From assembly GCF_017348835.2 (NCBI RefSeq), contig NZ_CP071375.1: a stretch of DNA of 64,000 nt. The stretch is one strand, 5' to 3'. A model generated the notes under the pieces. That model ran no database searches. It saw only the letters and a list, made by a program, of their open reading frames with translations, and had not been told where the DNA came from. Origin of the DNA: Escherichia coli (GTDB lineage: Bacteria > Pseudomonadota > Gammaproteobacteria > Enterobacterales > Enterobacteriaceae). Both the position numbers and the translations under genes were made by a program. Of this stretch, positions 1,693 through 11,725 are shown one piece after another. The first letter of the stretch is position 1, and each line of letters starts with the position of its first letter.

Positions 1693-2819
1693 TATTCTTT
1701 CCAGACGACTCTCTTGACGTAATCTGTATAAGAGTGAACGATTCTGACGACCTTATCCGACACATTTGGCATACTGTAATCACTAACCTGCCGTAAGAGA
1801 CGGGTCTCCCCGCGAGGTTGTGTCGACAAAATTTCAAGCGCCTGAAGCACGCGTTCACACTCCAGTCCCACCATCATGACGGATGCTTCCTCAAAGCCCT
1901 CCGGACGTTCATGTGCTTCCCGGATGTTTACAGCAGGAAAATTCATGATGGATGACTCTTCAGTAATTGTGCCGCTGTCTGACAACACAGCACGTGAATT
2001 CTTTTGCAGGTGATTGTAATCATGGAAACCTAACGGTTTCAGCAGATTAATATTTGGGTGGAATTCAATCCCTTGCTCATTAATACGATTACGCGTCCGC
2101 GGATGTGTGGATACAATGACTGGCAGATCATATTTTTCGGCAATGGTATTTAGAATGGTCGCAAGCTTGATGAGTTGCTTCGGAGAATCGACATTCTCTT
2201 CACGGTGTGCGCTAACGACAAAGAATTCACCAGGGCGCAAATTTAGACGTGACAACACATCCGAACCATCAATTTGAGGCATATAGTACGAAAGCACTTC
2301 AAACATAGGGCTGCCGGTTTTAATGATCCGATCCGCCGGGATACCTTCAGCCAGGAGATATTCACGCGCAATATCGCTGTAGGTCATATTGATGTCAGCC
2401 GTATGATCAACAATTCGTCGGTTAGTTTCTTCAGGTACACGCTGATCGAAACAACGGTTGCCAGCTTCCATATGGAAGATAGGCACTTTACGACGCTTGG
2501 CAGGAATGGCAGAAATACATGAGTTGGTATCGCCCAGCACCAGCATTGCTTCAGGTTTTTCGGTTTCTAATACTTCATCAACTTTGATGATAACCTGACC
2601 AATGGTTTCCGCCGCATTTTTCCCTGCAGCGTTTAAGAAATAATCTGGCTTACGGACACCAAGATCGTTAAAGAATACTTCGTTCAACTCATAATCATAA
2701 TTTTGCCCAGTATGGACAAGAATATGCTCACAATGTTCGTCAAGTTTGACCAAAACACGTGATAAACGGATGATTTCAGGACGTGTCCCAACCACAGACA
2801 TAATTTTTAATTTTTTCAT
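1689..2819 (-). CDS. fnlC: UDP-N-acetylglucosamine 2-epimerase, non-hydrolysing (FnlC/Cap5G type)
   Basis: 376-aa ORF beginning [19 protein letters not shown], the typical N-terminus of non-hydrolysing UDP-GlcNAc 2-epimerases; follows fnlA-fnlB. Confidence 0.85.
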
Positions 2820-3922
2820 TACAGAGGTCTCGCAATAGTATCAGGCTCATCACGATTGAAAATTTCGTTTGCCCAGAGCATAACTATTAATTCATCATTG
2901 CCAACATTCGTGACGTCATGGGTCCAGCCGGGTACTGTTTCAACGATTTTGAACTCATCGGATGAAACATTCAGTTCATAACGTTCACCGGTAATCACAT
3001 GTTCGAATTTGAAGCACGCCTGTCCACGGATGACCAGGAACTTCTCATTTTTGGTGTGATGATAATGCCCACCACGCGTTATACCGGGATGCGCTGTGAA
3101 AAATGAAAACTGCCCCGCTGAAGGCGTTTTTAACATCTCACAAAAGATCCCGCGGGCATCACCATAGGACGGCACCGTATAAGCAAACTTTTCGGCTGGT
3201 AAGTAACTTAACCACGTCGAATATAGCGCTCGGGTCATTCCCGTCCCCACAGCTTCTGTGACAAGCGTAGAACGACTCTCCTTGAAACGATAAAGTAATT
3301 CCGCCACCTCACCAACTGTCGTTGAGTAAACCGGCACAACGCCTTTATATCCGCTATGAACCTCTCCTGTGAGAAGTTTTATCGCATGTGTGCAAACGTC
3401 ATCGATATAAACCAGATTAACCGGTGCCGAAGGGTCATTGATGGTTATGTCAATATTGTTGGCAATGTTATGGCAGAAGGTAGCCACGAACGAGTTATAG
3501 TTCGGTTTACACCATTTACCAAAAACATTTGGGTACCGATAGATATAATATGCTGCACCACTTTCTGCTGCATAACGCTCAATTTGTTTTTCAGCTGCAG
3601 CCTTACTCTGACCATACGCATTATCCAGTTCAGCCTGGATCGAAGAACTGATCATAATAGGTATGCTTTTGTTCTTCGCTAACAGAGAATCCACAATCTG
3701 CTGAGTAAAATTGCAATTCCCTTCGACAAACTCTTCGACATTTTTAGGTCGATTGATACCCGCAAGGTGATAAATGAAATCCGCATCTTGCAGGCCAATT
3801 TCAAGCTCGGCCGCACTTGAGTCACGGTCAATCTTAACAAGGTCAACATACCCTGCTTCCTGAAGGCGTAAGCACAAGTTACGTCCGATAAAGCCATCAG
3901 CTCCAGTAATCAGGATTTTCAT
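2819..3922 (-). CDS. fnlB: FnlB/Cap5F-type reductase of the UDP-L-FucNAc pathway
   Basis: Rossmann N-terminus [16 protein letters not shown]. The ORF track starts 11 codons upstream (3955); the internal ATG at 3920-3922 lies 1 nt after the fnlA stop and is the likelier start. Confidence 0.8.
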
Positions 3923-3923
3923 G

Positions 3924-4958
3924 TCAGGCGTCCAGATCGTAATTTTCACCAGCACGCAGTGCGCGAATAAACGGCAACTTAAGAAGCAGCGTTTTCATCC
4001 CTTCTACATCCAGTCGCTGTGTATTATGGGAGTTATAATCTTCAACAACGGAGATACGGCTGTCACCTTGTTCTACATATTTTCCGTAGTTAAGGTCACG
4101 CAAATCAGGTGGTACGCGATAGTAATCACCCATATCGATGGCCGCAATCATCTCTTCACGGCTCAGCAGCGCTTCATAGAGCTTTTCTCCATGGCGGGTA
4201 CCAATGACATTGACAGGATGGTGCTCGACATTCAGAAGCTCTTTCAGAGCAATTGCTAATGTTTCAATCGTAGCTGCAGGCGCTTTTTGTACAAAAATGT
4301 CGCCATTATTACCGTGCTCAAATGCATAAAGCACCAGATCGACAGCATCCTCAAGGGTCATCATGAAACGAGTCATGTTTGGATCAGTGACAGTCAGCGC
4401 TTTACCTGCTTTGATCAGATCAACAAACAGCGGAATCACCGAACCACGAGATGCCATAACGTTGCCATAGCGAGTACCACAAATCACCGTTTTATTGCTG
4501 TTTACATTTCGGGATTTAGCGACCATGACTTTCTCCATCATCGCCTTAGAGATACCCATGGCATTGATTGGATAAACCGCTTTATCAGTACTTAAACACA
4601 CAACGCGTTTTACTTCGTTTGCAATTGCAGCTTCGAGAACGTTTTCGGTGCCGAGCACGTTAGTCTTAACCGCTTCCATTGGATGGAATTCACATGATGG
4701 CACTTGTTTAAGGGCGGCAGCATGGTAGATAAAATCAACGCCACGGCTGGCATTGAGTACACTGCGATAATCCCTGACATCGCCTATGTAAAACTTAAGC
4801 TTCTCACTATTGTATTTCTTGCGCATATCATCTTGCTTTTTTTCATCGCGCGAGAAAATGCGAATTTCTTTAATATCAGTTTCCAGAAAACGATTTAAAA
4901 CTGCATTTCCAAAGGAACCTGTTCCGCCTGTAATCAAAAGCACTTTATCTGAAAACAT
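3924..4958 (-). CDS. fnlA: UDP-GlcNAc 4,6-dehydratase/5-epimerase (FnlA/CapE type)
   Basis: 344-aa ORF with LLITGGTGSFG N-terminus and extended SDR fold, as in FnlA/CapE/WbjB; first gene of the fnlABC triplet. Confidence 0.85.
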   Translation of the reverse strand: MFSDKVLLITGGTGSFGNAVLNRFLETDIKEIRIFSRDEKKQDDMRKKYNSEKLKFYIGDVRDYRSVLNASRGVDFIYHAAALKQVPSCEFHPMEAVKTNVLGTENVLEAAIANEVKRVVCLSTDKAVYPINAMGISKAMMEKVMVAKSRNVNSNKTVICGTRYGNVMASRGSVIPLFVDLIKAGKALTVTDPNMTRFMMTLEDAVDLVLYAFEHGNNGDIFVQKAPAATIETLAIALKELLNVEHHPVNVIGTRHGEKLYEALLSREEMIAAIDMGDYYRVPPDLRDLNYGKYVEQGDSRISVVEDYNSHNTQRLDVEGMKTLLLKLPFIRALRAGENYDLDA

Positions 4959-4978: not shown

Positions 4979-6082
4979 TTATAACTTATCAATGCTGCGC
5001 ATGTACATTAAGGCCCTTTCTTTAGCCGTTGGAAGCTTGCTAAAAATTAAGTCGGCCTTTTCTTGCTTTATCACTTTATCGTGTACGCCTTCAACTCCAG
5101 AAATGATTTTGTCACAAATATCATTGGCATCATAAGGATCAAAATATATTGCGCTGTCGTCACACACTGTATGAGCAAATGGTAGATCAGACGTGAAGAT
5201 CATTTTTTTGAAATACATGGCTTCTACATAACTGGCACTGAAACACTCCAGTAACGTTGGCAAAAATAGTGCATCACAATAATGATATAATGCTGGACAT
5301 TGATTAATGGAAACTGGCCCAACATTAATTACACGATGGCTATACCGTTCGGGAATATCCGCCATCGAAGAACTTAACGTAACAATGAACTTGTAATTAT
5401 CTGGCAATAACTCAATTAGCTTGGGTATCACGGTTAGGTTTTTGTGAGGATAATCATGTGAAATTGTCAGAAGGTAAATGTCCCCCACATTCCTCTCCGG
5501 TAAATCGTCTAAGATACTATTATCGTATAAATCCTCATTCTGCAAAATCGCATTGATTGTATTAGGAACAGTGACGACATGACTGTCCTTAAAATGATAT
5601 TGTTCCACAAGTTTATTTTTAGCATCATCAGTTTCAACAAATATAAGATCTGCATTTTTTTTATAAAAATAAGGTTGTAGGCGCAGTAAAAGTATCTTTT
5701 TTACCTTTTCACAAAAACTTAACTTCGGAAATACTTGGCTCACATCATAAATCAGCCATGGCAACGCGAATCCAACGGCATGCTTAACATTCTTCGGGCT
5801 CCAGTAACTTGGGCCAAATATCGTAAAGACTTTCGTAATTTTATTTTCAGCAACGAGCTGATCTAAATCTCGTCTTGATTCAACATTGAACACATTTGAT
5901 GGTGTTTTTCTGATAATTTTGCATCTTGATAGTGTTTCTCCTGAGAGTTGTTTCGCAACTACAGGTGAAACTGCTGCAATGAAATGTTGCCCACCTTTAG
6001 TTAACTCTTCTAATACAGATACAGCAACCTGAACACCACCACCCACATACAGATTAGATGCATTAATCAGCAAACTCATCAA
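4979..6082 (-). CDS. Glycosyltransferase, GT1/GT4-like (specificity unknown, possibly a hexose transferase)
   Basis: 367-aa ORF between wzy and fnlA in the O-antigen operon; AT-rich; assigned by position and general resemblance to GT-B glycosyltransferases. Confidence 0.6.
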   Translation of the reverse strand: MMSLLINASNLYVGGGVQVAVSVLEELTKGGQHFIAAVSPVVAKQLSGETLSRCKIIRKTPSNVFNVESRRDLDQLVAENKITKVFTIFGPSYWSPKNVKHAVGFALPWLIYDVSQVFPKLSFCEKVKKILLLRLQPYFYKKNADLIFVETDDAKNKLVEQYHFKDSHVVTVPNTINAILQNEDLYDNSILDDLPERNVGDIYLLTISHDYPHKNLTVIPKLIELLPDNYKFIVTLSSSMADIPERYSHRVINVGPVSINQCPALYHYCDALFLPTLLECFSASYVEAMYFKKMIFTSDLPFAHTVCDDSAIYFDPYDANDICDKIISGVEGVHDKVIKQEKADLIFSKLPTAKERALMYMRSIDKL

Positions 6083-6129
6083 TATCTTCCCTTATTTTAA
6101 CTGCTATAGACATCTTCGTCGAAAAAGGA

Positions 6130-7443
6130 TTATTTTTTAGGTGTATTTTCTATCCTTCGAGGCTCGACTTTTCTAATGAGCAGCAAAAGGAACAACACAA
6201 TTAAGTATGGAATGATTAAGACAAATTCCCCAAAGAAATAGTTTCCAAACAGCATAAACACGATCGCTTTCATAAAACACGCCTGTAACAGACAATATTT
6301 AATATTGCTGGATGTTTTATTGTAGATAATTTGAAGCAATAAGCCAATAATAAATGAATAGAGTATTACACCAGCTAATCCTAGATCATTATAGAAATAG
6401 TATATAAATGTTTTTGCATTGAAAAAACCAACCTCATAGTCAGTGAACCCCATGGAGTTACTATCGTAATAGGTACCAAAGAACGGCTTAAGAATAAACT
6501 TAAGACCACCCCATATATATGTGGGTTCGAATGATGAGTTAATTAATAAATTCAGATTCTGAAAATTCATTGCAACATAGGTGTAAATCTGGCTAAAAAG
6601 CGAATTTGCCATCCCATCACCAAATTGAGTAGAGGCGCGACTTGTTTCTGAAATCCGCATTGCACCGATATACAAAAGCAATGCCATCGGTAGCATAACC
6701 ATCATTAGTTGTTTGAACCCTAGCGTAATTTTACGTGGAATCAGAAAAATATAGATGGCACCTAACATGAATACTAAAAATTCTCCCCTTGATACCTCAT
6801 AAACCAATGCAACTACAATACTGAAAAAAACATAGGATAGAAGGAAATACTTTCTCACACGCCCTTGTCGATATGAGTACTTAAGTTCAAATAGAGCAGC
6901 AAGTGCTATGTAAGGCATTGATACATCTATGAAATTCAACAACGGAGGCGCATTTGGAACTAATGATTTTAAATCACTTCCTGCACCAGACAGAAGTGGT
7001 GGATTAGTGAGCATCACTCCAAAGCGCATAAAGAAAGCAACGACTGATAAAGCTACAATAAAATTAAAAAATACGCGATAAAATAAGTTAAAGTCAAAAC
7101 GCTGAAAACTAAAATTATTTTTATCTATCTTTTTTGAAAATACAAATGGGGCAACAAAGAAAACACCAGCAAGTAAAATAGCACTTAGTGTTTCCAGACT
7201 TAATTCTGATTGCAATTGATGGTCATACAGAATATCAACCGTAGACAGGGAAGCTGAGAAGTACCAAAAAACAATACCAATTCCAAGAGGATGAATAATA
7301 TCTTTTGTTTTTAAAACAATTAAAGAATATAAGACCAAAGCTATTATAAAGAATGCAATTGAGATCATAATGGGCTCTACCGCGAATTTACTTATTATTA
7401 TACGCGAGATGCTTTGCGCGCGAAATGAAATAACAATAACCAA
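6130..7443 (-). CDS. wzy: O-antigen polymerase Wzy (polytopic membrane protein)
   Basis: Very hydrophobic 437-aa ORF with many predicted TM segments, adjacent to wzx. The ORF-track start overlaps wzx by 56 nt; the true start may be the internal Met near 7368. Confidence 0.6.
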   Translation of the reverse strand: MVIVISFRAQSISRIIISKFAVEPIMISIAFFIIALVLYSLIVLKTKDIIHPLGIGIVFWYFSASLSTVDILYDHQLQSELSLETLSAILLAGVFFVAPFVFSKKIDKNNFSFQRFDFNLFYRVFFNFIVALSVVAFFMRFGVMLTNPPLLSGAGSDLKSLVPNAPPLLNFIDVSMPYIALAALFELKYSYRQGRVRKYFLLSYVFFSIVVALVYEVSRGEFLVFMLGAIYIFLIPRKITLGFKQLMMVMLPMALLLYIGAMRISETSRASTQFGDGMANSLFSQIYTYVAMNFQNLNLLINSSFEPTYIWGGLKFILKPFFGTYYDSNSMGFTDYEVGFFNAKTFIYYFYNDLGLAGVILYSFIIGLLLQIIYNKTSSNIKYCLLQACFMKAIVFMLFGNYFFGEFVLIIPYLIVLFLLLLIRKVEPRRIENTPKK

Positions 7444-8590
7444 GTAACACTAACCATCCTGTAGCCAATTTTCCATATAGATAGTCTTCTAGCTCAAATT
7501 TCACATTGGCGAATACTGGGATGCAATAATATGACATCAAAATGAGACAAACAACACCACTGACACACACCATTTGTTTGCGCAAATCTAATCCATTCAT
7601 TACATGGTAATATATTGCAGTAAATGCAAAGGGGATAACAGCAAGTGTTGCCATATGTAATTCAGAAACGAGGTTTCCATACTTAGTGAAATTTTCTATA
7701 AAAAATTTCATAACAACGTTTGCAATAATTACGCCCGACAATGTTACTACAAGCATAATAAGACTCTCTTTAACAAACAAACGCTTACCACTTTGACTAC
7801 ACTGCCTAATAACTTTGACAAAAAGCAACTCCGCACAGGTCGAGGGAATTATCATTAGGGCACTAAATGCGAATATGATAACGCTATAATTACCTAGTTG
7901 CTCACGACCACCGGAATCATCAATAAAAAAACGGTCCATGACAAGATATAAAAAGGTAAATATTGCATTAAGGAATAACAAAGCCGATGGTTTAAACAAG
8001 AACTTTAATCTTGTTAACAACAACTTAGGGATCAGGAACTTTTTTAGTCCCTTTTCCACTCTATACAGTCTTATAATAGCTAAAGCATAGCAACCTAAAC
8101 TCGAGTAAATATAAACATCAAAATTGTGCGTTATGATATACAACACTAGTGGAATAAGCACAGGAAAGAACTGTGAATATAAAACTAGCCAAAGCATTTC
8201 ATCAATCCGGTTTGTCGCCCGATAGTATGCTTTAATAATATTACTTATCGATATAAATACTCCACACAAGGTGAGTATAATAACTGTCAAATTAGAATGG
8301 TTAAAAAATAAAGCCACCAACAAAATTGTTAACGCCCCAATAATATTCGTTAACAATACAGTTGTAACTAATAATTTTTTTTCTCTTTCCTTTTTTAGTG
8401 GAATAAATCGATCTAAGGAAAATCGTGCACCAAAGTGTGAGTAGTCCACAAATTGCTGCCAGGTTCTAGCAAGAGTAAGATCACCTAGCTGAGCTGTTGT
8501 GAGATATTTCATCATGACTAGACTAAGGAATATATTGAGAAATTGAATAGCATAATTTATCAATATATATATTAACCCTTTTTTAATCAT
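7388..8590 (-). CDS. wzx: O-antigen flippase Wzx (MOP/PST family)
   Basis: 400-aa multi-TM ORF with a Wzx-like N-terminus (MIKKGLIYILINYAIQFLN...); very AT-rich, typical of wzx. Confidence 0.65.
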   Translation of the reverse strand: MIKKGLIYILINYAIQFLNIFLSLVMMKYLTTAQLGDLTLARTWQQFVDYSHFGARFSLDRFIPLKKEREKKLLVTTVLLTNIIGALTILLVALFFNHSNLTVIILTLCGVFISISNIIKAYYRATNRIDEMLWLVLYSQFFPVLIPLVLYIITHNFDVYIYSSLGCYALAIIRLYRVEKGLKKFLIPKLLLTRLKFLFKPSALLFLNAIFTFLYLVMDRFFIDDSGGREQLGNYSVIIFAFSALMIIPSTCAELLFVKVIRQCSQSGKRLFVKESLIMLVVTLSGVIIANVVMKFFIENFTKYGNLVSELHMATLAVIPFAFTAIYYHVMNGLDLRKQMVCVSGVVCLILMSYYCIPVFANVKFELEDYLYGKLATGWLVLLGYCYFISRAKHLAYNNK

Positions 8591-10172
8591 GGTTTTTCAC
8601 CACGTCCTGAATTACCTCTTCATAAAAGCCATCACGCATAGGTATATTATTTTCGATATTAGCGATAATTTCTTGATATTTACTCAGGTAGACATCATTA
8701 TAATTTTCATGTGGCATGATGTGTTGCTTAGGTAAAATATCAGAATGTCTCCGGCTCAACGATACCATATAAAGCAATACTAATGCCCGTTTACGAACTT
8801 CATCATCCAGTTTTGCTAACCCCGAGATCGAATCTAAAATATTGTAATAAGATTGAACAGATTCAGGTTCAAGGGTAATACCAAAACCGGCATAGTATCC
8901 TTTTCCAGCAGTTACTGCAGGAATCCCAAGGCATGAAAATTCCAGTCCTGCCGTCCCTTTTGCCGTAACAATGCTGTCTGCAAAATCTGCAATAGAATTA
9001 GTATTCAAATCAACCGGCATCATATAAATATTATCCAGTTGATTAGCCTCAATTAAGCTCTCAACTCCTCCCTTTTCATTCCACATGTACGAACTTGGAT
9101 GAGCTTTTACAAAACAGTTAATATTTCGATTTTTATTGAGGCGAATTAGCGTTTTTTCCAAGAAATCATAATAGTCATTAAATAGTAACCCCTCACCAAC
9201 ATGAGGTGAGTCAGAGAACGCATGTGACATGACAACAACATTTTTTTTACGAATATCAACTTTAGGGTAAATAGATTTTAACTGTTCAATACTATATTTT
9301 TTCTTATTTTGATAAGCATTTTTTACATCTATTTGATCAACGTTACCTTCTAATCTGTCATAGAAATATTTATACGCTCTGTCAACAAAATCAATTGCAT
9401 GAAGGTTCTGCAAAAATGCTTCTTGCGTTGGTTTCAGGAAGTGTTCTTTAATATTTATTGCAGGTCCATAACATTTATAGGCATATATATCTTTAAGGAA
9501 TACTATGCCGTTATTGTGATGTCTAATTTGACGAGGCAACATGCCAAATTCAGCATAGACATTATGGCTAGTTACAAGATATTTCGGATTATATTTTTCC
9601 AACATTAACTCATTGTTATGAAATGTTAGAAATGATCTGAATATCAATCTTAAATGTTTAACCTCAATTTTTTTAACAGTATATTCGTTAGGTCTGAATC
9701 GAATGAGAGTATCGTAAATGAGATCACCAATCTCAACGCCGCGATAGTTTAGATTGATCAAAGATTTTGCAGACCTCGATCCTAACATGGTTTTAAGTGT
9801 TGCAATGACAGCGGGTACAAACACCTTAGGATGGAAGAATCCACGCCACCAGCAATAAAAATGATTAATATTGAAAGAATTATAAATATGACTGACATTG
9901 CTACCTGTAATATTAAAGCCTCGAATATATACAACAGGTTGGACTCCTGTTTCTTGCTGTATTGCTTTTGCTATTCTTGCCTTATCCATAATACTTGCAG
10001 GACATGCAATGATACCCTCAACCAGACAATATTCTTTTTTTCTATTAGTTTGAATTCTAGTTGATTTCTCTGACTTCCATAACCCGCTGTTCAATTCTAC
10101 AAACTTATTTTCAATTTCATCTCGCTGATAGGGTTTGAGATAGCGAAGTATCGTTTTTATTTTTGATAACAT
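8583..10172 (-). CDS. Uncharacterised 529-aa protein; candidate nonulosonic-acid (legionaminic acid) transferase
   Basis: Long soluble ORF between the nonulosonic-acid biosynthesis genes and wzx, with no counterpart I recognise. The cluster otherwise lacks an enzyme to transfer the CMP-activated sugar. Function inferred from context only. Confidence 0.45.
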   Translation of the reverse strand: MLSKIKTILRYLKPYQRDEIENKFVELNSGLWKSEKSTRIQTNRKKEYCLVEGIIACPASIMDKARIAKAIQQETGVQPVVYIRGFNITGSNVSHIYNSFNINHFYCWWRGFFHPKVFVPAVIATLKTMLGSRSAKSLINLNYRGVEIGDLIYDTLIRFRPNEYTVKKIEVKHLRLIFRSFLTFHNNELMLEKYNPKYLVTSHNVYAEFGMLPRQIRHHNNGIVFLKDIYAYKCYGPAINIKEHFLKPTQEAFLQNLHAIDFVDRAYKYFYDRLEGNVDQIDVKNAYQNKKKYSIEQLKSIYPKVDIRKKNVVVMSHAFSDSPHVGEGLLFNDYYDFLEKTLIRLNKNRNINCFVKAHPSSYMWNEKGGVESLIEANQLDNIYMMPVDLNTNSIADFADSIVTAKGTAGLEFSCLGIPAVTAGKGYYAGFGITLEPESVQSYYNILDSISGLAKLDDEVRKRALVLLYMVSLSRRHSDILPKQHIMPHENYNDVYLSKYQEIIANIENNIPMRDGFYEEVIQDVVKNHD

Positions 10173-10257
10173 TAAATTTAACTACCTCTTCATTTCCAAA
10201 ATGCAAATGTAAAAATCAACATTTCAAACTTAATATTCATTCAATAAATGATAAAAA

Positions 10258-11022
10258 CTAAAGTGAGAAACCATCATCAACGATAATGTTCTGACCTGTA
10301 ACATATCTTGATTGATCTGACAGCAAGAAAACAATGGATCCCGTCATTTCATTAACATCCAGCATTCCAGTTCCATGAGTGTTTTTTCTATATGCCTCAC
10401 AAAATTCAGCTGGTTGGTTGTCAAAAATTCCACCGGGGCTTACTGAATTAATGCGGAAGTCACTATTATTGACATACGCTACAATATACTTATTCAAATG
10501 TAATAATGCTGACTTGATTGCCGCATATTCTACAGGCATTGTCATTTGAGTATTGTCATAAATATTGAATTTAGGAGCAATTACACCGTAAATGGATGAT
10601 ATATTAACCATCGAAACTGGCTTTTTTTGTCGCATAAAAAACTGTGCAGCTTGTTGGCTAATCAGGAAGGAGCTACCCAAGTGAAGCGATAAGTTTTCAT
10701 TGAAGCTGGCAAGCGTTACATCGAATAACTTACGACCATACGTTTTATTCCTGGGATAGGTTGCATTGACAATTCCATCAATGTCCTCAAGGCTGTTAAA
10801 AAAATCAGTGACAGATTGTTCATTGGTGACATCAACCTCAGCGTAGGTTATGTTCATGCCAGATGTTGCTACACCTTGTGCACTTAATTTATTCTTTATA
10901 TGGTTTATATCAAGATCGACAGCAATAACCTTTGAACCATTTGCAAGGCATGCCTTCGTCAGGCATGCGCCAAGCAGACCACCAGAACCAAAAATGACAA
11001 TATTTTTATTTTCCAGTATCAT
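10258..11022 (-). CDS. ptmA: Short-chain dehydrogenase/reductase, PtmA-like
   Basis: 254-aa ORF with SDR N-terminal glycine-rich motif (IVIFGSGGLLG); last gene of the legionaminic-acid-type block. Confidence 0.65.
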   Translation of the reverse strand: MILENKNIVIFGSGGLLGACLTKACLANGSKVIAVDLDINHIKNKLSAQGVATSGMNITYAEVDVTNEQSVTDFFNSLEDIDGIVNATYPRNKTYGRKLFDVTLASFNENLSLHLGSSFLISQQAAQFFMRQKKPVSMVNISSIYGVIAPKFNIYDNTQMTMPVEYAAIKSALLHLNKYIVAYVNNSDFRINSVSPGGIFDNQPAEFCEAYRKNTHGTGMLDVNEMTGSIVFLLSDQSRYVTGQNIIVDDGFSL

Positions 11023-11023
11023 T

Positions 11024-11725
11024 TTAATTACATTCCTTTTTCATCGTTAGAATGGTTTCAGCCATAAGAAAATCATAAATATCATCGATATCAACAGCTC
11101 TTTCCTTCGGAACTTCAACCGAAGTAACATTCCCTGAAAACAATCCAATATTATTCAGAATAAATTCGGGAGTTGAGACATAAACGACGGTAGTAATATC
11201 GAACACATCAGGACAGTCCTGACGTCTTGAGACATCCCCTTCTGGGCTAATTACTAACTCATTCAAGCCATTGCTGTTGATTTTGACCATATTAAAATAT
11301 GGACTACGTGATGCTGGCGTTACTGCGATACAGATATCTGCATCTGTTTGCATGCGTTTAGCAATGGCACGTTCAACATCCTGCACTTCTCGCAATGGAC
11401 TCGTGGCGGGAAGGCTGACAAATTGTCCAAATGCCCCGTAATGCTCAGTTACCCACTCAATAGCATGGCGCCACGCAAACCACTCAGGACTTTTATCACC
11501 AGAAAGTTCATCAGGTCTGTCAATGACAACAACATCTTTTAATTCTAATGCTTTTTGTTTAATGTCTGCGTCATCTGTGGAGACAAATACTTTATCAATT
11601 GATGGGGACAGTTGTGCAATCTCGATTGCATAGTGTAATAAAGGCTTTCCACATAACTCTTTTATGTTCTTCCCTGGCAGGCCTTTAGAGCCTCCGCGAG
11701 CAAATATAAAAGCATAATTTTTCAT
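11024..11725 (-). CDS. legF: CMP-nonulosonic acid synthetase (acylneuraminate cytidylyltransferase family; CMP-legionaminic acid synthetase-like)
   Basis: 233-aa ORF with N-terminus FIFARGGSKGLPGKNI, characteristic of NeuA/LegF cytidylyltransferases. Confidence 0.75.
   Translation of the reverse strand: MKNYAFIFARGGSKGLPGKNIKELCGKPLLHYAIEIAQLSPSIDKVFVSTDDADIKQKALELKDVVVIDRPDELSGDKSPEWFAWRHAIEWVTEHYGAFGQFVSLPATSPLREVQDVERAIAKRMQTDADICIAVTPASRSPYFNMVKINSNGLNELVISPEGDVSRRQDCPDVFDITTVVYVSTPEFILNNIGLFSGNVTSVEVPKERAVDIDDIYDFLMAETILTMKKECN

What the first reader, a model, noticed from the sequence alone, without database searches (positions are those of the whole stretch)
6130..8590. Ambiguous wzy start and wzx/wzy overlap
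The longest wzy ORF overlaps the 3' end of wzx by 56 nt, and the 529-aa gene overlaps wzx by 8 nt. The true wzy start is probably an internal Met (around 7368) with translational coupling. The exact start matters for topology-based assignment of wzx versus wzy.
Basis: seen in the sequence. Interest (0 to 1): 0.2.

Follow-up and report, generated by a model that had tools for sequence, protein, structure and literature searches.

The report
Ordinary wzy start-codon ambiguity, resolved
The region holds the flippase (wzx) and polymerase (wzy) genes of the E. coli O108 O-antigen cluster, and the "long" wzy reading frame that overlaps wzx is a chance open stretch: wzy starts at the ATG at 7368, as public annotation already has it.

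Summary
On the minus strand, the longest wzy ORF (TTG 7443 to 6130, 437 aa) overlaps wzx (8590 to 7388, 400 aa) by 56 nt. The 529-aa gene (10172 to 8583) overlaps wzx by 8 nt.

The window is the E. coli O108 O-antigen cluster. RefSeq already annotates wzy as 7368 to 6130 (412 aa).

Evidence for ATG 7368:
- None of 31 homologues (32-100% identity) carries the 25-aa extension; 25 start exactly at the Met column.
- All 8 homologous loci examined have an in-frame stop 3-48 nt upstream of the conserved ATG.
- The 437-aa form is absent from about 15 billion proteins. The 412-aa form is on 236 contigs.
- AlphaFold gives pLDDT 31-35 for the extension, and TM1 begins at the Met.

RBS scoring alone would mislead. 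TTG 7443 has the stronger SD-like match, but that match is made of conserved Wzx T-G-W codons.

Gene identity does not depend on the start. The 400-aa protein has a WzxE/MurJ fold. The 412-aa protein hits TIGR04370 and has an FtsW/RodA/WaaL-like fold.

Translational coupling is plausible but unproven. This is ordinary and already known.

The parts
6130..7368 (-). wzy, O108 O-antigen polymerase, 412 aa, ATG start at 7368-7366
7369..7387 (-). 19-nt wzx-wzy spacer (AUUCGCGGUAGAGCCCAUU) holding a weak SD-like CGGUAGAG at 7382-7375
   Evidence: Duplex with the anti-SD is -3.8 kcal/mol, which is the 25th percentile of background positions. GGTAGA is shared with L003 and GTAGA with L004. No promoter or terminator match lies at the junction. 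No significant RNA structure is predicted, z = -0.32.
7388..7443 (-). 56-nt stretch where the spurious 5' extension of the wzy ORF (TTG 7443) overlaps the 3' end of wzx
   Evidence: The extension is absent from all 31 homologues. The frame is closed by TAA in the closest relative, L003. AF2 pLDDT is 31-35. The 437-aa protein is not in the collection of about 15 billion proteins.
7453..7460 (-). SD-like AGGAUGGU upstream of TTG 7443, made of the wzx codons for the conserved T-G-W motif
   Evidence: Duplex energy is -6.7 to -7.4 kcal/mol. G378 is invariant in the Wzx alignment. The same ACAGGATGG occurs in L003 and L006, where the wzy frame is closed.
7388..8590 (-). wzx, O108 O-antigen flippase, 400 aa, ATG start at 8590
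   Evidence: Foldseek best hits are WzxE 9g9n (E 1.6e-6, TM 0.61-0.62), 9g9p (TM 0.63-0.65), then MurJ and MATE. Homologues at 54-58% identity carry PF01943. M1 is present in at least 90% of homologues. SD-like GGUGA lies at 8601-8597, 6 nt from the ATG.
8583..8590 (-). 8-nt overlap ATGATTAA between the stop of the 529-aa gene and the wzx start
   Evidence: Seen directly in the sequence. The same ATGNTTAA overlap is present in 7 of 9 loci from Enterobacteriaceae to Acinetobacter.
8583..10172 (-). 529-aa gene (orf10 of the O108 cluster), a Gtr59/KpsS-family putative non-2-ulosonic-acid glycosyltransferase
   Evidence: PF05159 Capsule_synth scores 27.6 bits against a cutoff of 20. Kenyon et al. 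2015 (PMC4487303) report it as 63% identical to A. baumannii Gtr59. It lies next to the nonulosonic-acid genes in all homologous loci.

Best explanation
This is the wzx-wzy pair of the E. coli O108 O-antigen gene cluster (Wzx/Wzy-dependent pathway), co-transcribed on the minus strand in the order orf10 (Gtr59-like transferase), wzx, wzy, glycosyltransferase.

wzy is translated from ATG 7368, giving a 412-aa polymerase whose first residues form TM helix 1. The 25 codons upstream, back to TTG 7443, are a chance stop-free run in the +1 frame of the wzx 3' end and are not part of the protein. So wzx and wzy do not overlap. They are separated by 19 nt carrying only a weak Shine-Dalgarno-like element.

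Initiation at wzy is probably inefficient. It may be helped by ribosomes terminating at the wzx stop 19 nt upstream; this step is inferred, not shown. The 8-nt ATGATTAA overlap between orf10 and wzx is real and conserved, and it is the classic arrangement for coupled translation.
For: Shown:
- The DNA is 99.8-100% identical to five E. coli genomes, in which PGAP annotates 'O108 family O-antigen polymerase' at window 6130-7368 and the flippase at 7388-8590.
- 31 homologues of 32-100% identity are 399-424 aa long and cover at most 94% of the long ORF. 25 start exactly at the M26 column and none has the extension.
- In 8 of 8 homologous loci the wzy frame has a stop 3-48 nt upstream of the conserved ATG. 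Six have no alternative upstream start. In the closest one (82% aa identity) a TAA lies inside the would-be extension.
- TIGR04370 profile position 3 aligns to residue 44 of the long ORF.
- AF2 gives residues 1-22 pLDDT below 50, a helix at 25-46, and pLDDT of about 96 from residue 31 on.
- The extension has a maximum 19-residue KD hydropathy of about 1.2, so it is not a TM segment.
- The exact 412-aa protein is on 236 contigs. The 437-aa protein is absent from the collection.

Supporting the coupling inference:
- Wzx-wzy gaps in homologues run from -4 to 87 nt, with ATGA overlaps in L007 and L010.
- No promoter or terminator match lies at the junction.
Against: - The SD-like match upstream of TTG 7443 (-6.7 to -7.4 kcal/mol) is stronger than the one upstream of ATG 7368 (-3.8).
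- Homologue start sites are themselves gene-caller predictions rather than experimental N-termini. The closed upstream frames are independent of that caveat.
- The five O108 genomes are too similar to test conservation of the open frame within the serogroup.
- No experimental N-terminus or ribosome profiling was available.
- For coupling, no RNA structure sequesters the start (z = -0.32), and a 19-nt gap is not an overlap.
Confidence: 0.93

Rival explanations
1. The longest ORF is the real gene. Wzy starts at TTG 7443 (437 aa) and overlaps wzx by 56 nt.
For: An open frame exists. An SD-like AGGAUGGU lies 9 nt upstream of the TTG at -6.7 to -7.4 kcal/mol, the 6th percentile of background.
Against: - No homologue has the extension.
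- The frame is interrupted in all 8 related loci, including the 82%-identical one.
- The SD-like motif is made of the conserved Wzx T-G-W codons and is also present where the frame is closed.
- The extension is unstructured in AF2.
- No pipeline or database entry has the 437-aa form.
- TTG is a weak start codon (general knowledge).
Confidence: 0.02
2. Dual initiation. Most Wzy starts at ATG 7368, but in O108 strains a minor N-terminally extended isoform is also made from TTG 7443.
For: The same SD-like element and open frame as above. Nothing in the sequence forbids it.
Against: The extension is not conserved, so any such isoform would be lineage-specific and probably without function. Ribosomes translating wzx through this site would interfere with internal initiation (inference).
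Confidence: 0.04
3. Wzy starts further downstream, for example at TTG 7338.
For: TTG 7338 is in frame. The TIGR04370 profile begins only about 6 residues after it.
Against: - It would truncate TM1 (MISIAFFIIALVLYSLIVL) to about 8 hydrophobic residues.
- Residues between 7368 and 7338 align with homologues and are part of a high-confidence helix.
- There is no SD match, at +0.2 kcal/mol.
Confidence: 0.01

Closest known systems
E. coli O108 wzy and wzx as annotated in RefSeq/UniProt (WP_053884260.1, A0A0A8J5N0 and WP_053884261.1; cluster described by Perepelov et al. 2010)
   Same: The DNA is identical (100% in strains PE164 and F2_81). The coordinates are the same as the 412-aa and 400-aa products.
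   Different: Nothing. The window is this locus.
Enterobacter (mori/cloacae-type) O-antigen polymerase and flippase, locus L003
   Same: Wzy is 82-83% identical and Wzx 81%. Gene order is the same, as are the 19-nt wzx-wzy gap, the GGTAGA motif and the 8-nt orf10-wzx overlap.
   Different: The wzy frame upstream of the ATG is closed by TAA at -48, so no long ORF exists there.
Acinetobacter baumannii K-locus module (Gtr59/KpsS-family transferase, Wzx, Wzy), e.g. KL12 (Kenyon et al. 2015, PMC4487303)
   Same: Gene order is the same next to a non-2-ulosonic-acid synthesis module. Wzy is 47% identical and Wzx about 56%. The paper reports orf10 as 63% identical to Gtr59.
   Different: It is a capsule locus rather than an O-antigen locus. 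The nonulosonic acid differs (acinetaminic versus 8-epilegionaminic acid). The wzy SD is stronger (GAGGG, -6.1 kcal/mol) and the gap is 13 nt.
WzxE lipid III flippase / MurJ (MOP superfamily; PDB 9g9n, 6nc6)
   Same: The predicted fold of the 400-aa protein matches, with E 1.6e-6 to 6e-5 and TM 0.6-0.7.
   Different: Sequence identity is only 14-16%. The window protein itself gets no PF01943 hit, although its homologues do.
SEDS polymerases FtsW/RodA and the O-antigen ligase WaaL (PDB 8bh1, 8tj3, 6pl5, 7tpj)
   Different: Identity is 8-12% and only about 215-232 residues align. Foldseek found nothing significant. They act on different substrates.

Membership tests
Wzy / oligosaccharide repeat unit polymerase (TIGR04370) | Profile HMM score above the curated cutoff | tested here: met
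   131.5 bits against a cutoff of 40, E 3.8e-38. Residues 44-419 of the long ORF align to profile positions 3-396 of 396.
Wzy / oligosaccharide repeat unit polymerase (TIGR04370) | Polytopic inner-membrane protein with a SEDS/WaaL-like polymerase fold | tested here: met
Wzy / oligosaccharide repeat unit polymerase (TIGR04370) | Encoded in an O-antigen or capsule cluster alongside wzx and glycosyltransferases | tested here: met
   It lies between galF and gnd in E. coli PE164. Synteny is conserved in 8 related loci.
Wzy / oligosaccharide repeat unit polymerase (TIGR04370) | Polymerises Und-PP-linked O units (a knock-out gives semi-rough LPS) | not testable with these tools
   Requires genetics and LPS gels.
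Wzx O-unit flippase (MOP superfamily, Pfam PF01943 Polysacc_synt) | Match to the PF01943 profile | tested here: not met
   The window protein has no PF01943 hit even at E up to 10. Homologues at 54-58% identity do pass it: L005 at 31.8 bits and L006 at 28.4 bits against a cutoff of 28.2, and most hits.
Wzx O-unit flippase (MOP superfamily, Pfam PF01943 Polysacc_synt) | MOP-superfamily helical-bundle fold | tested here: met
   The AF2 model has pLDDT 88 and pTM 0.84. Foldseek finds WzxE at E 1.6e-6 and TM 0.62-0.65, then MurJ and MATE, with 26 hits at E of 1e-3 or better.
Wzx O-unit flippase (MOP superfamily, Pfam PF01943 Polysacc_synt) | Flips the Und-PP-linked O unit across the inner membrane | not testable with these tools
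   Requires experiment.
Gtr59/KpsS-type transferase (Pfam PF05159 Capsule_synth) | Profile score above the gathering cutoff, and adjacency to nonulosonic-acid genes | tested here: met
   27.6 bits against a cutoff of 20. It is adjacent to the cytidylyltransferase and SDR genes here and in the homologous loci. The family assignment comes from PMC4487303.
Translationally coupled gene pair | Stop of the upstream gene overlapping or abutting the start of the downstream gene | tested here: met
   orf10 to wzx: the 8-nt ATGATTAA overlap is conserved in 7 of 9 loci.
Translationally coupled gene pair | Downstream translation depends on upstream translation (wzx to wzy) | tested here: inconclusive
   There is a 19-nt gap, a weak SD and no occluding hairpin. 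Two homologues have ATGA overlaps. Dependence itself needs an experiment.

The most novel reading that the evidence does not exclude
In O108 strains only, the chance-open frame plus the SD-like AGGAUGGU inside wzx allows a minor N-terminally extended Wzy isoform (437 aa, TTG 7443). This would be a lineage-specific overlapping-gene product, with an extra 25-residue tail carrying a net positive charge.
Probability: 0.04. Interest if true: 0.2.

Novelty: already known. Interest (0 to 1): 0.05.

Why it matters
It matters little beyond annotation hygiene. The correct wzy start is already in RefSeq and UniProt, so nothing changes for O108 serotyping or biology.

Two general lessons follow.
- Longest-ORF calls overshoot real starts in AT-rich O-antigen clusters.
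- Shine-Dalgarno scoring alone can pick the wrong start when an SD-like motif is a by-product of conserved codons in the upstream gene. Closed upstream frames in homologous loci are the cleaner test.

Tried and rejected
- Pfam found nothing for either membrane protein. NCBIfam found nothing for wzx.
- RNA folding of the wzx-wzy junction, looking for a start-occluding hairpin that would argue for coupling, gave z = -0.32, which is nothing.
- The promoter and terminator scan showed no excess over shuffles and nothing at the junction.
- A simple Kyte-Doolittle TM count undercounts helices relative to the AF2 models. I used it only to show that the extension is not a TM segment, not to derive a topology. 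I did not determine an in/out orientation.
- A literature search for published statements on weak wzy ribosome-binding sites found no open-access paper. That point rests on my own recollection of the Shigella flexneri rfc/wzy work and is not used as evidence.
- The longest-ORF reading and a downstream TTG 7338 start were both considered and rejected (see rival explanations).

Full report
**Observation.** All genes in this part of the window lie on the minus strand.
- The longest ORF for the downstream membrane protein runs from TTG 7443 to the stop at 6130 (437 aa).
- The upstream membrane protein runs from ATG 8590 to 7388 (400 aa). The two ORFs share 7388-7443, which is 56 nt.
- The 529-aa ORF (10172 to 8583) shares the 8 nt ATGATTAA (8583-8590) with the 400-aa gene.
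- The in-frame stop upstream of the long ORF is TAG 7452-7450. The only canonical starts after it are TTG 7443, ATG 7368 (codon 26) and TTG 7338.

It is not statistically remarkable. The +1 frame of wzx carries 0.10 stops per codon, so a 27-codon open run has a probability of about 0.05. Three of 42 open runs inside wzx alone are that long.

**Identity of the locus.** Window 5900-8800 is 99.8-100% identical to five complete E. coli genomes. There PGAP annotates 'wzy: O108 family O-antigen polymerase' and 'wzx: O108 family O-antigen flippase'. Mapped to window coordinates, the RefSeq wzy CDS is 6130-7368 (412 aa, ATG), wzx is 7388-8590, and the 529-aa gene is 8583-10172. In strain PE164 the cluster sits between galF and gnd, downstream of the colanic-acid genes. 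The O108 O antigen contains 8-epilegionaminic acid, and its cluster was described by Perepelov et al. 2010, as cited in PMC7685785 and PMC4487303.

**Which start is used.**
- *Homologue N-termini.* A search with the 437-aa ORF returned 42 proteins of 33-100% identity and 369-424 aa, none covering more than 94% of the query. Of these, 31 were aligned. 25 begin exactly at the column of M26 (ATG 7368). The remaining six begin within about -7 to +4 residues of it. None has anything resembling the 25-residue extension.
- *Closed upstream frames.* Gene-caller starts could share a bias, so I examined the DNA of eight homologous loci. These came from Enterobacter-like, Trabulsiella, Cedecea, Acinetobacter and Providencia sources and from three metagenomic contigs. 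In all eight the wzy frame is closed by a stop 3-48 nt upstream of the conserved ATG. Six have no alternative upstream start at all. In the closest relative (L003, 82% aa identity) the equivalent TTG is present but is followed by an in-frame TAA. The differences between the two sequences read as a conserved protein in the wzx frame (VLLGY...K*), whereas the wzy frame is interrupted by the stop.
- *Profile.* TIGR04370 aligns from residue 44 of the long ORF at profile position 3.
- *Structure.* An AlphaFold2 model of the 437-aa form (pTM 0.82) gives pLDDT 31-35 for residues 1-22. The first long helix starts at residue 25 and confidence is about 96 from residue 31.
- *Hydropathy.* The extension has a maximum 19-residue hydropathy of about 1.2 and contains R, R, K and E, so it is not a membrane segment.
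- *Databases.* The exact 412-aa protein is found on 236 contigs under the name O108 family O-antigen polymerase. The exact 437-aa protein does not occur among about 15 billion sequences.
- *Downstream alternative.* TTG 7338 would cut TM1 in half and has no SD match.

I conclude that wzy starts at ATG 7368, with confidence of about 0.93.

**RBS scoring.** This is the one test that points the other way. The region upstream of TTG 7443 pairs with the anti-SD at -6.7 to -7.4 kcal/mol (AGGAUGGU, 7460-7453, 9 nt from the TTG). The region upstream of ATG 7368 reaches only -3.8 kcal/mol (CGGUAGAG, 7382-7375), which is the 25th percentile of background positions.

The AGGATGG motif is, however, the codons ACA GGA TGG for the T-G-W motif of Wzx, in which G378 is invariant. 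The same DNA motif occurs in L003 and L006, where the wzy frame is closed. It is therefore a by-product of wzx coding and not evidence of a start. SD strength at the true wzy start varies widely among homologues, from -0.7 to -9.5 kcal/mol.

**Which gene is wzx and which is wzy.** This does not depend on the start.
- The 400-aa protein has no direct Pfam or NCBIfam hit. Its homologues at 54-58% identity carry PF01943. Its AF2 model (pLDDT 88) best matches the lipid III flippase WzxE (9g9n, E 1.6e-6; TM 0.62-0.65 across the two inward-facing WzxE crystal forms), followed by MurJ and MATE transporters. It is a MOP-family Wzx.

**Junctions and coupling.**
- *orf10 to wzx.* The ATGNTTAA 8-nt overlap is conserved in 7 of 9 loci from Enterobacteriaceae to Acinetobacter. 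An SD-like GGUGA lies 6 nt from the wzx ATG. M1 of Wzx is present in at least 90% of homologues. This is the standard coupled arrangement, and the wzx start is secure.
- *wzx to wzy.* With the correct start there is a 19-nt gap and no overlap. Homologues have gaps of -4 nt (ATGA, L007 and L010), 11, 12, 13, 19, 28 and 87 nt. No promoter-like or terminator-like site falls at the junction, and no significant RNA structure occludes the start (z = -0.32). Re-initiation by ribosomes terminating at the wzx stop is plausible but is an inference. I put it at roughly even odds.

**The 529-aa gene.** It scores 27.6 bits on PF05159 Capsule_synth, with a cutoff of 20. It is orf10 of the O108 cluster, reported as 63% identical to A. 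baumannii Gtr59, the proposed transferase for a non-2-ulosonic acid (PMC4487303).

**Verdict.** The matter is already settled in public annotation. This is an ordinary longest-ORF overshoot. Novelty: already known. Interest: 0.05. The only unusual reading not excluded is a minor lineage-specific extended isoform from TTG 7443, with a probability of about 0.04.

Noticed in passing
window 8583-10172 (-): The 529-aa gene is named inconsistently in RefSeq. It is 'hypothetical protein' in three genomes and 'capsular polysaccharide export protein, LipB/KpsS family' in two. Kenyon et al. 2015 propose it as a Gtr59-family nonulosonic-acid glycosyltransferase and suggest that the O108 structure or linkage may need reassessment. 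A 2019 review still lists O108 as having one glycosyltransferase fewer than expected.
   Followed up: partly
window 2819-3955 (-) and 4979-6082 (-): Two more longest-ORF overshoots occur in the same cluster. The wbjC/fnlB-like ORF is listed as GTG 3955 (378 aa), but RefSeq starts it at 3922 (367 aa, MKILITG). The glycosyltransferase ORF is listed from TTG 6082, but RefSeq starts at the adjacent ATG 6079.
   Followed up: partly
window 7388-8590 (-): The O108 Wzx gets no Pfam or NCBIfam hit at all, even at E up to 10 for PF01943, although relatives about 55% identical pass the PF01943 threshold. It is recognisable only through homologues or by fold.
   Followed up: yes
L003-L010 versus window 4979-11725: A conserved block occurs in Enterobacter, Trabulsiella, Cedecea, Providencia and Acinetobacter as well as E. 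coli O108. Its order is cytidylyltransferase, SDR, Gtr59-like transferase, wzx, wzy, GT1 glycosyltransferase, often followed by fnlA. This suggests the cassette moves between O-antigen and capsule loci.
   Followed up: partly
L008:267-1489: In the Providencia locus the wzx homologue is called as two genes (282 aa and 108 aa). This suggests a frameshift or nonsense mutation, or a sequencing error.
   Followed up: no
window 7375-7381 (-); L003 and L004 upstream of wzy: A short GGTAGA/GTAGA motif 8-13 nt upstream of the wzy ATG is shared by E. coli O108, the Enterobacter-like locus and Trabulsiella, although the flanking spacer differs. It may be a weak non-canonical ribosome-binding element or simply shared ancestry.
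   Followed up: no
window 6130-7368 (-), residue 274 of the 412-aa Wzy: The cluster representative P0001 differs from the window protein by one residue (GMANSL versus GMANLL). Several single-residue variants of O108 Wzy, and one 413-aa form, exist in public data.
   Followed up: no
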